DNA from: Haliotis rubra
Lineage: Eukaryota
Direction: 5' to 3'
NCBI RefSeq assembly: GCF_003918875.1
Contig: NW_025765173.1
Coordinates: 124,001 to 188,000 of the forward strand
DNA: 64,000 nucleotides
A program made the position numbers and the translations under genes. This document shows, in pieces, positions 3,643 to 41,354 of the stretch. Position 1 is the stretch's first letter, and every line of letters starts with the position of its first letter. Under the pieces are notes generated by a model. The model was given only the letters and a program-made list of their open reading frames with translations. It had not been told where the DNA came from and did not search any database.

Positions 3643-3879
3643 TTAATCATCCCTACTATTTTACCTGGAGTATAATATATGACCCTGTTGATGAAACATG
3701 TCACTGATAGAATTATAAAGATATGTGTTTAAAGCCATATCAAAGATCTTCTTAATTATAACTTAATTAAAACTGCCAATGACCATGCTGAGTGTCATCT
3801 ACTGTTTTAATTTGACACCATGCTAAGGATGGTCAATATGGTATGGTATGAAAAAATGTGGTAAATCAAGATGTTCAAC

Positions 3880-4861
3880 CTGTGTAATAGAAACCAGCTT
3901 CGGCAAGCTGCTGTGCTGTCGGATTCATTTGTGGAGGCCAATCCTTGAATGTTTCCTTCCGAACAGTGAAATCCTCAAAAAAGGGATTGTGAAACATGCA
4001 CGGCACACTCGAACTTGTTGTGTTGTTGTTATCTTCATCACTGTCACTTGATGTGTCACTGTCACTATGCTCACTGTCTCTCTCTATCAACTCTTCCAGT
4101 CGACATGACACATTACTTACATCAAAACCTCTGAAGAATGGGCAGTTTGGGCTCAGTGCTCTATGTATATCCTTCACAGGGGTAGTACACTCAGCTGTAG
4201 GACAGGTGGTTTGCTCACCACAGAAAACACATCTAACTTTATCGCCTGTCAACATGACAAATCCACTGGATGCTAGTTCTTTTGCTTTGAGACATGGTTT
4301 AGCTGCAAATGTGGCGTATCGCTTGCTTTCGAAAAGCATGTTGTTGCTGCCAAATTTTGGGATGAATGGCAGTTTGAGCATTGACTGAACCTGTGCATTT
4401 GTCAAACTACTGTCGTTTGTGCGTAGATTATCATCCTCTGGAAATAACTGACGTCGTACGATTGTAGATTCAGCAGACGTTAGGAACAATTCGGGCGACA
4501 ATGGGGTCAGAGATCTTGTAGAATAGGGACTAGATACATCTGTTTCAGCACTTGTATCATCGGCACTTTGACAGCTGAGGAAGGGACATTCTGGACTGCG
4601 ACACAAGTGTACAGAGAACGGGGACTCGCCATAAAATGCACTCCAGTCCTTCATGACAAGACCACACGAAAAGCATCTTACTTTGTCCCCATCCGAGCTG
4701 GGGTCCCGGTAGAATCCAGATTTTGAAAGCTTCAATGACGATGGAATTGGTGTTAAATTGGCGATTCCCTCAAATGAGGTCACCGGTTTTAGGGGGTTTT
4801 GACCAAATGATGCAACCCTCAGCATCTCTAACGACATGTCAGCACACGAAGAAGACTCCAT
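3880..4861 (-). CDS. IAP (BIR-repeat protein, XIAP/cIAP-like), first visible coding exon: BIR1, BIR2 and first half of BIR3
   Basis: The first ATG in the ORF is at 4861 (MESSSC); the track's start at 4900 is TTG. BIR1 is RVASF...GFY...DKVRCFSC...H...SPECPF. BIR2 is RYATF...LASSGF...DKVRCVFC...H...SPNCPF. BIR3 begins RKETFKDWP...LAEAGFYYTG. The exon ends ACA G|GTTGAA (phase-1 donor). Confidence 0.9.
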
Positions 4862-5681
4862 TGCGAAATACTCCAGGAATGATAACAACGTATAATCCAA
4901 TATTTTGAAAATATAAACAAAAATAACGATGTACCCTCAGTTGTCAAACAATGCGGGAAACACCACCATTTTGTGTTGTGGATATGATGTCAGGAATAAT
5001 AAGGGGAGATAATATTTTGCCTTTGTGCGATTGTGTACCACTAAACCATTTTCCGTCACGTTTTCGTGTCAGCTGGGAACTTTAGTAGCTGGACAAACTA
5101 ACAAACTAACAAACTATCATGTCATGTTCTTAGTTCGTAAGGAAATCATTTTCACAAACAACCTATGCATACGTGTGGAAATTGAGAGCTATTATGCAAA
5201 CAGTGAGCAAACTTACAATGGGGTTTTAAATACAAAGCCATATAATAATATAGGCTTCAGGTAAATAGATGTAAGGAACTAAGCATATCATATCAACGCA
5301 TTTAAAATAGCGGGCAGAGATGTAAGCAAGTCTGCTTCTTCAGAATTGGTTTGACGATAATGCCTCAAGATTCGTAGACATATAAAATATTCCTGAAAAA
5401 TGTTTTAGACTAATATGATGGCTGAAAGTTATCACTGGCAAACGTAGGGTCGTACGACGGATAAAAACCAAATTGAGCTACAGAGATCGATCGTACTTTT
5501 GATGATACAACACGTTATTCGTTTCAACTCTTGACTTCAGCAGGTTTTAACAGGTTCCAGTCAGTCTTGGCAGATGTAGGCCCACGTTAAAGTAATATTG
5601 CACCCTTACGAGAATAGCGGTGATTCAGAAGCACCTGTCGCGGTGACTCTTTCTGACAAGCGTCTCACGCTCATTCTGTCT

Positions 5682-5833
5682 TGAGTGAGTGAGTGAGTTT
5701 GGTTTTAGGCCGCTTTTAGCAACATTCAAGCAAAATTACGGCGGGAGACACCAGAAATCGGCTTCATAAATACTGTACCCATGGGGGGAATCGAACCCAG
5801 AACGCTTTAACCACTAGGCTACCCCAGCGCCCC
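5682..5833 (-). mobile_element. SINE family 1, internally deleted
   Basis: Matches 2533-2698. Confidence 0.85.
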
Positions 5834-6498
5834 GGGATCCCGTCTTGATCTGTCCCCACTGTGAGGTATACGTTCTTTAATGAAAAACGTTTCCATCGAG
5901 GGAACGTTATATTTTCATAAATCATTTTATTGTAAAAGAAGTTTAAATACTATTATTATCATTATTATAGAGAAATAAGAAGATGATTAATGTATTTAAG
6001 TCGTACACTACAGTTCAATAAAGATACACATATAATATCCATCTATATCCAAACACCCATCCCCGTGGCCTGTAATTTCGACTGGTTTGAATTGGGTTCT
6101 TCGCTATTTTCGCTGCGCTGCGCGAAACCTATTGGACGTTGCAAGAAGGAGAAGCCTTAAATATAATGAAAATGTATAGCCAAACTGTCATATGTTTGTT
6201 GTTGTTTTAATGCTTACCAGATTTGTAATGTGAAGGTATCGAGGAACATCATAATTATGCACCTAAAAAACTACATAGGATGACTTCAGCTACTTCAGGT
6301 TTACAAACGAACAGGTGATAACTCTTGGTTAAAATGTAACATCTGAGATAAATCAATGATTTAATGATTCACCATTTAAATTGGCTGTTCTGCTAGACAT
6401 TTGTCATACGCAGATATATAGTTTACCGTGTTCGTGGTCTAGTAAGCTATGACAGAAACCAGTAATTACCAGCACGCACATTTTCGTAAATCTACCTG

Positions 6499-6701
6499 CA
6501 TGAGACAAAATATTATGGATGTCAACTTCTTCTTTATTGTATACACAACGTTTCAGGGCTTTTCCTTGTGAATGACCTGACGAAGGGCAAGGAAAAGCCC
6601 TGAAACGTTGTGTATACAATAAAGAAGAAGTTGACATCCATAATATTTTGTCTAATACTTGAATACAACTTGTACCAACTTCTATATGCCTCTCAAGAAC
6701 C
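6499..6701 (+). mobile_element. Short palindromic Penelope-like element with hammerhead core
   Basis: Perfect 66-bp inverted repeat (6503-6568 / 6588-6653), AATAAA at 6618, a unique 3' tail, and an exact 11-bp TSD AAATCTACCTG (6488-6498 / 6702-6712). Confidence 0.8.
6571..6617 (+). ncRNA. Putative minimal type I hammerhead ribozyme
   Basis: CTGACGA (6577-6583), stem II AGGGC/GCCCT with an 8-nt loop, GAAA (6602-6605), then CGTT (palindromic minimal stem III with GUU triplet). Stem I is weak. Confidence 0.6.
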
Positions 6702-6795
6702 AAATCTACCTGTGTTTGAATAACAAAGCACAGGACTCACAGGATAACAACTTCTTGTTTATTGCATAAAGCGAAGTTTCCTACACCGTTACCAC

Positions 6796-6960
6796 TGACT
6801 GACTGACTGAGTTTGGTTTTATGAGGCTTTTAGCAATTTTCCAGCAACATCACGGCGGGGGACACCAGAAATGGGCTTCATTGTACCCATGTGGGGATTC
6901 GAACCCGGGTCTTCGGCATGACCAGCCAACGCTTTAACCACTAGGCTACCCAACCGCCCC
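6796..6960 (-). mobile_element. SINE family 1, full length
   Basis: Matches the family. TSD ACACCGTT(A/G)CCA. Confidence 0.9.
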
Positions 6961-7372
6961 ACACCGTTGCCAAGCTGAATGTGTACAATCAATGATGATG
7001 ATGGTTTTATAGATTTAACGTGCCGCTTTCCGACATAATGCGTATTTCGCACACGGGTGTACATCCAAGAGATGAGACGTATGTATATGTAGTATGTTGT
7101 GACAAGTAGCAAATTAACATTAACAACAACAGGTAATTGATAACAAGTTGCACATAACTGGAGGGGCCAGGTGGGGAGTAAGGACAACGAATAACATAAG
7201 TAATGAAACCAATACACGATTGATTTGTTAGTTGATTGGATGTCGGCTGGATAGTTGATTAACAGAGTCTGTTGCTTGATTACCCTTTCGTAGGCTGATG
7301 GTATGTAATTACGTACAGGGAAATGTTTTTGGTAAACATATTCCGATCAGATGTGAGAATTCAAGGGCCCTG

Positions 7373-7638
7373 GGCCCCGTTCCACAAAGCGATCGTAGCG
7401 CTAAGGTGATCGTAACTCCCATACCTTAACATAGACTTGCGACTGTCGTAGAGCTAAGGTGATCGTAACTCCCATACCTTAACATAGACTTGCGACTGTC
7501 GTAGCGCTAAGGTGATCGTAACTCCCATACCTTAACATAGACTTGCGACTGTCGTAGCGCTGAGGTGATCGTAACTCCCATACTTTAACATAGACTTGCG
7601 ACTGTCGTAGCGCTGCGATCGCTTTGTGTAACGGGGCC
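7373..7638. mobile_element. PIF/Harbinger-like MITE with internal 53-bp tandem array (about 4 units)
   Basis: TIR GGCCCCGTT(C/A)CACAAAGCGATCG(T/C)AGCG, with a CTG TSD on both sides. Confidence 0.8.
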
Positions 7639-10156
7639 CTGGTTGTCAACTCCCTTCCATGCTGATCCGAAACCCAGTTTATCAAGTCACTAACGCTATT
7701 TAGTGATTACGCCGCGTAACTTCAATGCGGCTAAACGACTGGGAGATGGAAGTTTGTTTCTTTAAGACTCTAATTAGTTCCTGTAAGCCACGATAGGTTC
7801 ACGTTCATGTAACAGGATTAGCTGTTTTTAATGCTCGCTAAGGATTGCAGCTTACATGAGTTCGTCAAACAATGCTATCCATAAAGTTATAATCTTTGTT
7901 ATTATCTGTATTGTTCGCTATAAGTGTTCGTCGGGTGTGAATAGCGGACTAAGTAAATGGTTGTAATGATGAAGGATCACCGAAGCATTCAGTTAATAAA
8001 TTCATTAGTTACTGACTACTGCTTGGATCCAGGCGCCGCAATTCGCTGTTCAGAGTTGCGTCCCTTAGGACCTCAGAAACTTGTTTCATGGTTTTTCACT
8101 TTCATTCACTCAGTTAACAACATTGCTATGTTAAATTTCTGCCCTATAATGAACATTATTGCAATGCACATACGACAACAAATAGATGATACATCAGAAA
8201 GGAATGTGTTTAAGGGTGAAAACATACGCACACAGTTAAGAAGATCAGATCTGAATGAATATGCAGCGTATTTCACGGCGTAAAGAGATTTCACTGAAAG
8301 GGGTAGTCTACCTGGACAGTTGTAACACCGACATTTATGTATAAACTCTCTATACAAAAACAGAAATATCGTATAAATTCAGTATGTGCTATATCCATTG
8401 TCAGACGCGCTCACAATATTCCTAAACACTATTCTTGTGATAGCTGACTTATAGAGAGACTTGTTTATATTAGTGTGTAAACTGTGATTCACTTAGGTAA
8501 TATACAAAATGCCGAAATATTTCAGTCATTTTACAAGATGACTGAACATTCTGTGGACTGACTAATATTATTAAGAAGTTCAAAAGGGCTCAAACAATAC
8601 AATAGAATTAATGTGCTAGAAATAGAAGCCCTAACATGGGGTAAAATGATAATAGAAAAATAATACATACTTTCATTTATAAAGGCCTTCTTTGGTTTTC
8701 GTTTTCAAACACAATATTCAGTTACTGGGTTTTAAATTCAACATGAAAATGTATTAAATTCGTTATCATAACAAAGTTTACATGGACATATTTCAGTCAA
8801 TTTGGAAAACGACTGATACATTTTGTAAATTGTCTCATTCCTAATTACAGTAATTTTACACATCCTCTCTGACAGATATGCATATCGAGTGCGTATTATT
8901 AGAGTATTTATATTGTAGTGATGAACGATTTTAGATTCCCAAACGTTGTTTTAATGAGAATTAAAAACACGGATGTAAAATTTGTCAGTTGAAACACTCG
9001 TAAAATCCACAGATAATGTATCAGTATATAACGCTGCGCTATTGAGTTTAAGCTGTCAGTGAATATACAAAAGTATATTTGCTTCGCATTGCACGAATGA
9101 CTAGGTACATATATGAGAATGGACGTGATAACATGTATATATTAGGCGAATTGCCGTTAGCTATATAATCATGTGATTTACCGATACATACACATTGTGT
9201 GATTGACCGCTACCTACAGTTCGTGTAATCACCATATCGACCTCCACCGTGTGTGATCGACAATTACCTACATTATGTGCCGTTACCTAAGTATTTCGTG
9301 ATTTACTGTGTTTGAACTTTACCTACATATTATATATGACTGTTACCAATATAGCTTGTGATTCACCTTCACCTACATTTTGTGCCGTTATCTACACTTA
9401 CCGTGTACCTAAAGAGACCCCACTCGTTGCTTTACTGGTCGTATATTCAGTTACACAGTACGGACATTTACCTACGTATTATGATGATGAAGAGTTATCA
9501 CACGTAGCTACGTATGCTGTGTGGATGACTGTCACTTAGACAGTGTATGTCTGTTATCTGGTTTTTGTAACTGCATGTTGAGATATTTAGTAATTGGTAC
9601 CTGTCCATACTTTACGAAATATTGTTATCTACCTGTGTAAAACGTGGTTATCCACATATCAATGCATATCATCGTATCATAGCTGTTTAGATAAATGTAC
9701 GTAATGTCAATCTCAAATAGTTGGAATATTGACGAGTGCGGAGTTACACAGCAACCCACCAAGCCAACCAACCAGACCTACATATTTGAACAACTATCGT
9801 ATATGCATGTTTAGCGAATGGCGGTTGCAAACCTAAACCTGTTTCATTTTTCATTATTCGTACGAGAAATCCCACAGTTAATTTGTACTTAAGGTTAAGA
9901 AGAAGCAACAGTATAACAACGACTGATTAGATACGACTGGTTGATATATTTGTGAACAGTACCCCGGTAGTAACGCCAAATACACGCAGAATACAAGAGC
10001 CGGATTAAAGTCGTTCACTCACTCGTCATACTTAACTCTGGACACTTAATGCGATTCCTGATCCTTCTATACAGGTTGTTTAATGCCGGACTGATCAACA
10101 AAAATTCACGCTCTGTTGTTTTCAGCGAATAATGGGCTGTGTACTTAGATCGGAAC

Positions 10157-41168: not shown

Positions 41169-41354
41169 TAATTTGAGCGGCATTTTAGAAGTTGGGAAGT
41201 ACAATATTTACAAATGTTATGGATAGCAACTTCTATATTTCGTGAGTGTGCCGTTTCGTGGACCTTGTATCTCATTCCTGCTAGAATCTGTCTCGAAACG
41301 TCGCAGTCACCAAAATATAGAAGGTGTTATCCATAAAGTTTGTCTATATTTTAA
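41169..41354 (-). mobile_element. Related palindromic Penelope-like element in intron 1 of gene B
   Basis: Arms ACAAA..TTATGGATA..A.CTTCTATATTT, CGAAACGTC, the same tail on the left, and a candidate TSD GGTA(A/T)AGCATC at 41158-41168 / 41355-41365. Confidence 0.6.

What the first reader, a model, noticed from the sequence alone, without database searches (positions are those of the whole stretch)
6488..6712. Young ~200-bp retroelement containing a hammerhead core locked inside a perfect 66-bp hairpin
Seen: an exact 11-bp TSD and perfect 66-bp inverted arms. Across the loop and right arm lies CUGACGA - AGGGC/GCCCU - GAAA - CGUU, followed by AAUAAA. Known: Penelope-like elements carry minimal type I hammerheads with a palindromic vestigial stem III, reported to act as dimers, and they often form inverted terminal structures. 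Inference: a non-autonomous Penelope derivative. Its left arm is antisense to half of the ribozyme, so a full transcript should fold as long dsRNA (siRNA or ADAR substrate), whereas a transcript lacking the left arm could self-cleave after 6609. It sits in the divergent region about 1.6 kb upstream of the IAP ATG. Stem I is weak, so activity is uncertain.
Basis: partly seen in the sequence, partly recalled or inferred. Interest (0 to 1): 0.7.

Follow-up and report, generated by a model that had tools for sequence, protein, structure and literature searches.

The report
Mirror-image stump of a Penelope retrotransposon
This 200-base mirror-image DNA is one of hundreds of short stumps of a Penelope-type jumping gene, likely made when both strands of a DNA cut copied the front end of the element's RNA; its ribozyme is clipped and probably dead, so this copy is ordinary, though the family's break points likely mark where the RNA begins.

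Summary
In detail: 11-bp target duplication, perfect 66-bp arms, minimal hammerhead core. The interpretation needs correcting. This is not a self-spreading non-autonomous element: its junction occurs once in the genome. It is one of at least 953 tail-bearing stumps of an endonuclease-bearing Penelope-like family, whose longer copies join the same end to an RT/GIY-YIG ORF. Inverted tail-less end + tailed end + TSD is the published Penelope layout; 81 of 146 sampled copies carry an inverted segment. New here: arm ends pile up at one point just 5' of the hammerhead (50 of 70 arms, 1.3 expected), at an initiator-like motif 30 nt below a TATA box; a sister family does the same. The stumps are likely run-off copies of the transcript's first ~120 nt, primed from both DNA strands. 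A weaker pile at the predicted ribozyme cut (11 vs 2.9) hints at cleavage in vivo but is broad and not significant in the sister family. In this copy the junction removed most of stem I, so cleavage is unlikely even without the left arm. No expression data. The scan has already noted this pattern on other DNA (490 findings, at least 45 genomes).

The parts
6488..6498 (+). Target-site duplication, left copy (11 bp)
   Evidence: family TSDs are mostly 11-15 bp
6499..6568 (-). Left arm: antisense copy of the pLTR tip from about family position +87/88 (the tail-less end) to +19; 6503-6568 pairs perfectly with 6588-6653
6569..6574 (-). End of the left arm (family -1..+5, CATTCA on the minus strand) after a 12-nt gap that removed this arm's CUGACGA; stops at the family-wide wall
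   Evidence: alignment; similar junctions in L029 and L056
6575..6701 (+). Right arm: sense copy of the pLTR tip, family +5 to +123
6575..6615 (+). Minimal type I hammerhead motif: CUGACGA 6577-83, stem II 6584-88/6597-6601, GAAA 6602-05, CG palindrome, predicted cut after 6609; stem I reduced to 2 bp
6618..6623 (+). AATAAA; an A(A/T)TAAA hexamer lies 7-12 nt after the cut site in 7 of 9 family representatives; predicted poly(A) signal of the 3' pLTR
   Evidence: function is inference
6654..6701 (+). One-sided tail (about 35 nt plus a private 9-bp insertion) holding the ORF's ATG at 6686-6688 (MPLKN)
   Evidence: (L187 runs from a related pLTR into the ORF)
6702..6712 (+). Target-site duplication, right copy

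Best explanation
It is a single, dead-end insertion of the front tip (pseudo-LTR) of an endonuclease-bearing Penelope-like retrotransposon, likely made by priming reverse transcription from both strands of one staggered DNA cut on the first ~120 nt of the element's RNA. Shown: family identity, link to the RT/GIY-YIG ORF, fixed outer ends (about +88 on the inverted arm, about +123 on the tailed arm), variable inner ends that pile up at -1/+1, and a unique junction. Inferred: the element's protein nicks both strands 11 bp apart; one strand is primed at +123 and the other at +88 (the two start sites of PMC11167929); both cDNAs run towards the RNA's 5' end, predicted to be the transcription start at the initiator-like CATTC 30 nt below TATATATA; the two 3' ends are joined head to head, often after one added A and a 2-3 nt microhomology; gap filling gives the TSD. 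Here the top strand ran to -1 (losing 12 nt then or later) and the bottom strand was joined at +5, which clipped stem I. Both arms pass through the cut site, so the template was uncleaved RNA. The copy probably has no function; if read through it would form a 66-bp double strand.
For: Family: 155 exact and 953 near-exact (<=2 mismatches) tail matches, 0 for the reversed control. ORF link: L062 and L152 run from an RT C-half/thumb/GIY-YIG frame into the same hammerhead; nearest Atlas clusters carry HTH_animal, GIY-YIG and RVT_1; 60% identical to the intact 797-aa ORF of L345, which has RVT_1 and 99%-identical 222-bp pLTRs. Layout: 81 of 146 copies have an inverted segment, 67 of those 81 start at +82..+98; sister family B 52 of 69 and 41 of 52. 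Two primings: the inverted arm reaches >=10 nt further 5' than the tailed arm in 22 of 67 (A) and 21 of 41 (B), so it cannot be a fold-back copy of the tailed cDNA; tail-less sense copies ending at +88 exist (L069, L072, L074, L152); in the window copy each arm holds bases the other lacks. Same source for both arms: at each of four subfamily sites only 2 of 28-40 palindromes disagree between arms. Wall: 50 of 70 arms that reach it end at -2..+2, 1.25 expected; B 20 of 48, 1.3 expected. The wall follows the initiator-like motif (6 nt before CUGA in A, 7 in B), and no shared upstream exon is seen beyond it. Published layout: PMC3846280 and PMC8557442 (passages); both strands cut and extended, two RT starts: PMC11167929.
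Against: No transcription start was measured; the wall is read as the RNA's 5' end from motifs alone, and family A has an AG just upstream of it that could be a splice acceptor (D. virilis has an intron ending at helix I, PMC4209133). End positions come from local alignments and are blurred by 1-3 nt of microhomology. PMC3846280 explains such palindromes by self-priming on an antisense template, and many junctions do show short fold-back extensions. No intact ORF of family A itself was found among the loci fetched; the intact copy belongs to sister family B. Pfam gave no RT or GIY-YIG hit on the partial family A frames. The 12-nt gap may be a later deletion at the palindrome centre.
Confidence: 0.8

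Rival explanations
1. Fold-back: one cDNA runs off the RNA, hairpins on itself and copies itself back, and the endonuclease resolves the intermediate leaving the tail on one side (self-priming model).
For: Proposed in PMC3846280 and PMC8557442. Junctions often show a self-primed extension: T precedes the -1 base in 25 of 28 family A cases and GT in 13 of these (hand count). Both arms share subfamily alleles.
Against: Cannot give copies whose inverted arm holds sequence absent from the tailed arm (22 of 67 and 21 of 41), nor the window copy, where each arm has bases the other lacks. It may still act as the joining step.
Confidence: 0.12
2. A self-propagating non-autonomous mini-element (MITE- or retrozyme-like) whose hairpin switches an active hammerhead on and off.
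For: Perfect arms, TSD and intact core letters; retrozymes are proposed to derive from Penelope pLTRs (bioRxiv 10.64898/2026.07.22.740005, abstract and introduction).
Against: Junction found once in 1.38 Gb with up to 2 mismatches; inner ends differ from copy to copy; no tandem array; no TATA box in the copy; stem I clipped; core not conserved above background among copies.
Confidence: 0.04
3. The insertion has been co-opted to regulate the neighbouring IAP gene (hairpin RNA, siRNA source or terminator).
For: 1.63 kb from the IAP ATG; arms more alike than in 40 other palindromes, which gene conversion or selection could cause; a second haplotype may share it.
Against: With about a thousand copies, some must fall near genes; youth or conversion explains the perfect arms; no shared structure with other loci.
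Confidence: 0.04

Closest known systems
EN+ Penelope-like insertions with an inverted pLTR, one-sided 30-40 bp tail and TSD (Adineta vaga Pen2a, PMC3846280; general scheme PMC8557442; D. virilis Penelope, PMC2377424)
   Same: Head-to-head inverted ends, tail on one side only, TSD of about 10 bp, ORF start inside pLTR/tail, TATATATA about 20 bp before an initiator-like motif.
   Different: Here the whole insert is about 200 bp with no ORF body, and most copies stop at one point just 5' of the hammerhead, which the passages I read do not describe.
Minimal type I hammerheads of metazoan PLEs (PMC4209133)
   Same: CUGANGA and GAAA boxes, palindromic 15.2/16.2 with no helix III, short helix I, place in the pLTR; the paper also reports pairs on opposite strands 100-700 bp apart and many solo motifs from truncated PLEs.
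   Different: Family A mostly has G-A (or G-U) at 10.1-11.1 instead of G-C; the window copy has A-U there, no bulged base, and only 2 bp of helix I; its left arm lost the core.
Poseidon of Anolis (PAc) in vitro (PMC11167929)
   Same: Two RT start sites bounding the tail, both strands cut and extended, uncleaved RNA as main template.
   Different: In PAc the ORF starts inside the hammerhead and RT starts 111-118 nt into it; here the ATG lies in the tail at +108. The paper found no RNA-seq ends at the cut site; genomic ends here show a modest excess there.
L1 twin priming (recalled, no call)
   Same: Second primer from the other strand gives an inversion.
   Different: L1 inversions do not overlap the forward part; here both arms share >=30 nt of the same region in 50 of 67 copies.

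Membership tests
EN+ Penelope-like element | Single ORF with RT and C-terminal GIY-YIG joined to the same terminal repeat | tested here: met
   L062, L066, L152; Atlas clusters HTH_animal/GIY-YIG/RVT_1; 60% identity to the intact L345 ORF with RVT_1. Pfam did not hit the partial family A frames.
EN+ Penelope-like element | Inverted 5'-truncated pLTR plus 30-40 bp tail on one side, flanked by a TSD | tested here: met
   Window copy; 67 of 81 inverted arms start at +82..+98 while tailed arms end at about +123.
EN+ Penelope-like element | pLTR-ORF-pLTR full-length copy | tested here: inconclusive
   Found for sister family B (L345); for family A only 5'-truncated ORF copies were found; a related pLTR runs into a decayed ORF in L187.
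Penelope/Poseidon clade (versus Neptune, Nematis, Hydra) | Placement in an RT tree; no zinc finger in the RT-EN linker | not tested
   No tree was built; no cysteine cluster is apparent between thumb and endonuclease in L152 or L345 by eye.
Minimal type I hammerhead of PLEs | CUGANGA, GAAA, palindromic CG, UH cut site | tested here: met
   Present in the window and invariant in 10 family representatives (these were picked by a pattern that demands the core).
Minimal type I hammerhead of PLEs | Helix II with covariation | tested here: met
   3 of 5 helix II pairs and 1 of 3 helix I pairs change on both sides; 90% of cells paired; 0 of 500 shuffles reach the score.
Minimal type I hammerhead of PLEs | G10.1-C11.1 pair and bulged base 5' of helix II | tested here: not met
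   Window has A-U and no bulge; G-C in only 4 of 10 representatives.
Minimal type I hammerhead of PLEs | Helix I of 4-5 bp | tested here: not met
   2 bp in the window copy, pairing probability 0.05; family sequence 3 + 2 bp, about 0.66.
Minimal type I hammerhead of PLEs | Self-cleavage as a dimer or with protein | not testable with these tools
   Needs an in vitro assay.
Non-LTR retrozyme / non-autonomous family | Many copies or tandem units of one fixed structure | tested here: not met
   Junction unique; no tandem unit at the locus.
miRNA precursor | Rfam family at gathering score | tested here: not met
   mir-1597 47 of 93 bits, MIR2630 40 of 144: generic hairpin matches.

The most novel reading that the evidence does not exclude
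The thousands of pLTR stumps are a fossil 5'-end library of Penelope RNA: most record the transcription start, showing that the usual product of Penelope transposition is a two-strand-primed run-off copy of the transcript's first 120 nt (perhaps because a poly(A) signal just after the hammerhead removes the start sites from the 3' pLTR), and a minority record the hammerhead cut, which would be evidence that these minimal ribozymes cleave in the germ line.
Probability: 0.4. Interest if true: 0.55.

Novelty: new member of a known kind. Interest (0 to 1): 0.27.

Why it matters
The copy itself matters little. The family statistics bear on two open points of Penelope biology. First, how the inverted ends form: the data favour priming from both strands on sense RNA over fold-back on an antisense template. 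Second, whether minimal hammerheads cut in vivo: PMC4209133 notes the lack of in vivo evidence and PMC11167929 found no RNA-seq ends at the site. The wall gives a base-level prediction for CAGE or 5' RACE, and the intact sister element L345 is a ready substrate for the published in vitro assay.

Tried and rejected
Rfam scan: no hammerhead model hit. L091, first taken for a pLTR-ORF-pLTR copy, is a tandem homeobox gene duplication with a stump in each copy. Pfam on partial family A frames and a PDB sequence search: nothing. A sharp single-base peak at the ribozyme cut was looked for with gap patterns and not found: hand tallies gave, for family B, 30 distinct truncated ends among 46 rows (+44:2, +43:3, +42:3, +41:5, +40:7, +39:3, +38:2, +37:5) and, for family A, 25 among 35 rows (+44:2, +43:0, +42:5, +41:4, +40:4, +39:3, +38:3, +37:1, +36:3); duplicates, point mutants and internal deletions were dropped by eye. 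Family B also has piles at +48..+51 and +62..+64 that have nothing to do with the cut. A spliced upstream exon as cause of the wall: no shared sequence beyond -1. A cap-derived G before +1 in 7 of 16 cases (P 0.03): too few to use. Expression: no RNA holder listed. Empty allele: none among the joints shown, whose table was swamped by the neighbouring SINE; relatives were not resolved, so presence or absence outside this species stays open.

Full report
Observation. The coordinates are right. AAATCTACCTG flanks the insert at 6488-6498 and 6702-6712. The arms 6503-6568 and 6588-6653 are exact complements and the region folds 22 SD below shuffles. The hammerhead letters lie at 6577-6609 with the predicted cut after 6609. 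The BIR-domain gene starts 1.63 kb away on the minus strand. Rfam has no hammerhead hit.

Family. A search of the 1.38-Gb own genome with 6569-6701 gave 1574 first-look candidates, of which 40 were scored, at 86-90% identity apart from the window itself. A 22-nt tail pattern has 155 exact and 953 near-exact matches and none when reversed. Walking upstream from long copies led to frames with the RT motif KVDD, a thumb region and a GIY-YIG-type endonuclease that run through a 3' UTR into the same hammerhead (L062, L066, L152). The Atlas places the L152 frame among clusters with HTH_animal, GIY-YIG and RVT_1; Pfam and PDB searches on these partial frames found nothing. The frame is 60% identical to the intact 797-aa ORF of a sister element, L345, which has RVT_1 and two 222-bp pLTRs 99% alike. 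In this and other sister families the ORF begins with ATG-CC (MPLK) inside the tail. The window element is therefore the pLTR tip of an endonuclease-bearing Penelope-like element. I did not build a tree, so the clade is not fixed.

Anatomy in family coordinates (A of CATTCAC = +1). TATATATA lies at about -30, the hammerhead at +1..+46, the cut at +40/41, AATAAA at +49, the tail-less end at about +88, the ATG at +108 and the tailed end at about +123. The window copy is: antisense +87..+19, a 12-nt gap, antisense +5..-1 (TGAATG), then sense +5..+123 with a private 9-bp insertion in the tail. Both arms carry the same subfamily alleles (26A, 32T). The junction occurs once in the genome, even with 2 mismatches allowed.

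Copy survey. I mapped 146 distinct tail-bearing family A copies: 98 of the first 100 places listed, and the list up to contig C1557, after dropping duplicates and loci without a mappable tailed segment. I also mapped 69 family B copies from the head of the list. In A, 81 of 146 have an inverted segment, 67 of the 81 start at +82..+98, and 59 of 146 show a TSD of 10 bp or more, mostly 11-15; in B, 52 of 69, 41 of 52 and 45 of 69. This is the published layout: inverted pLTR, optional 31-bp tail, 9-10 bp TSD, TATATATA 20 bp before an initiator in Adineta (PMC3846280, passages); an inverted truncated copy and a 30-40 bp tail as general PLE traits (PMC8557442, passages); 34-bp repeats and inverted ends in D. 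virilis (PMC2377424, passages).

How it likely forms. PMC11167929 (main text read, parts 1-2 of 4) shows that a Poseidon protein cuts and extends both strands, starts RT at two adjacent internal sites bounding the tail, and uses uncleaved RNA. The copies fit. The inverted arm extends at least 10 nt further 5' than the tailed arm in 22 of 67 (A) and 21 of 41 (B) cases, which fold-back of the tailed cDNA cannot produce; both arms overlap by 30 nt or more in 50 of 67 and 30 of 41. At each of four subfamily sites the two arms disagree in only 2 of 28-40 palindromes, so both come from one RNA or one source locus. Inner ends pile up: 50 of 70 arms that reach it end at -2..+2 (1.25 expected from the background rate), and 20 of 48 in B (1.3 expected). 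Of arms reaching +14, only 20 of 125 (A) and 27 of 64 (B) go beyond -3. The wall sits on an initiator-like motif (CATTC in A, CAGTT in B; the TCAKTY consensus is recalled), not at a fixed distance from the ribozyme core, and no common exon lies beyond it. I read it as the transcription start: RT starts in the first pLTR of the transcript and runs off its 5' end. That is inference; no start was measured. A T precedes the -1 base in 25 of 28 A cases although the element has G or A there (hand count), which fits one added A and short self-priming before the two ends are joined. An A(A/T)TAAA hexamer follows the cut site by 7-12 nt in 7 of 9 family representatives; if used in the 3' pLTR it would cut off the RT start sites there and help explain why stumps outnumber long copies (inference).

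The ribozyme. Across 10 family representatives helix II and one helix I pair covary (4 of 8 pairs change on both sides, 0 of 500 shuffles reach the score), so the motif is real at family level and matches the minimal PLE hammerhead of PMC4209133 (parts 1-2 of 4 read), which cuts poorly and only as a multimer. Family A departs from it at 10.1-11.1. Among inserted copies the core mutates like the rest (71 of 1296 vs 567 of 9963 bases). In the window copy the junction leaves 2 bp of helix I (pairing probability 0.05 vs about 0.66) and the left arm has lost its core, so neither strand has a complete motif.

Do copies record cleavage? In A the window +39..+41 is the highest of 58 three-base windows between +21 and +80 (11 ends, 2.9 expected, P 2e-4), but neighbouring windows up to +44 are also high; in B it is 4 vs 1.6 (P 0.08), below piles at +48..+51 and +62..+64. 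Gap-pattern lists show no single-base peak. RT pausing at helix I or joining at the AACGTT and GTATAC palindromes could give the same hump. I rate cleavage fossils at about 0.35.

Age and function. None of the other 40 palindromes has arms as alike as this one, so it is younger than average or its arms were homogenised. One contig of run X1, possibly the source sample, matches 6200-6529 without difference; one of X2 has 4 flank differences and enters the element by 12 bases. No empty allele was seen in what was shown. No RNA holder was listed. Nothing ties the copy to the IAP gene beyond distance.

Novelty. The layout is in print. A run-off wall at the start site or twin priming for Penelope did not turn up in my searches (listings only, open-access library; supplements not read). 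The retrozyme preprint (part 1 of 5 read) concerns tandem arrays, which this is not. The scan's own notes hold 490 similar findings in at least 45 genomes, several with the same twin-priming, start-site and cut-site readings; I had noted these readings before that look-up and took from it the test of shared alleles between arms. Verdict: a new member of a known kind; interest 0.27.

Noticed in passing
L345 (G000:C2517, about 165450-168400): Intact Penelope-like element of sister family B: open 797-aa ORF, 222-bp pLTRs 99% identical; 834 tail matches with <=1 mismatch in the genome. Probably recently active.
   Followed up: partly
window 6742-6768 and 41173-41234: Short minus-strand pieces of related pLTR tips; the first lies 30 bp downstream of the element.
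   Followed up: no
window 5682-5833 and 6796-6960: Two copies of a very abundant SINE with a tRNA-like part on the minus strand.
   Followed up: no
window 7369-7642: 53-bp tandem repeat (about 4 units) enclosed by 50-bp inverted ends; looks like a MITE with an internal minisatellite.
   Followed up: no
window 3875-4936 (-) and about 11600 (+): BIR-domain (IAP) exon; weak claudin-like match on the opposite strand, more claudin-like frames by eye near 21.6, 44.3 and 51.3 kb.
   Followed up: partly
family A hammerhead, position +32: Most copies have G-A at the 10.1-11.1 position (A in about 83% of 136 arms), shared with three sister families, instead of the usual G-C.
   Followed up: partly
L091: 4.1-kb tandem duplication of a homeobox gene, each copy with the same Penelope stump in an intron.
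   Followed up: no
L022 upstream: A unit of about 50 bp from the element's 3' UTR (-244..-187) amplified into a tandem array of at least 20 copies in front of the pLTR.
   Followed up: no
family B, upstream of +1: No TATA box but repeated TGACGTCA motifs at about -35 and -21; CRE-like by recall.
   Followed up: no
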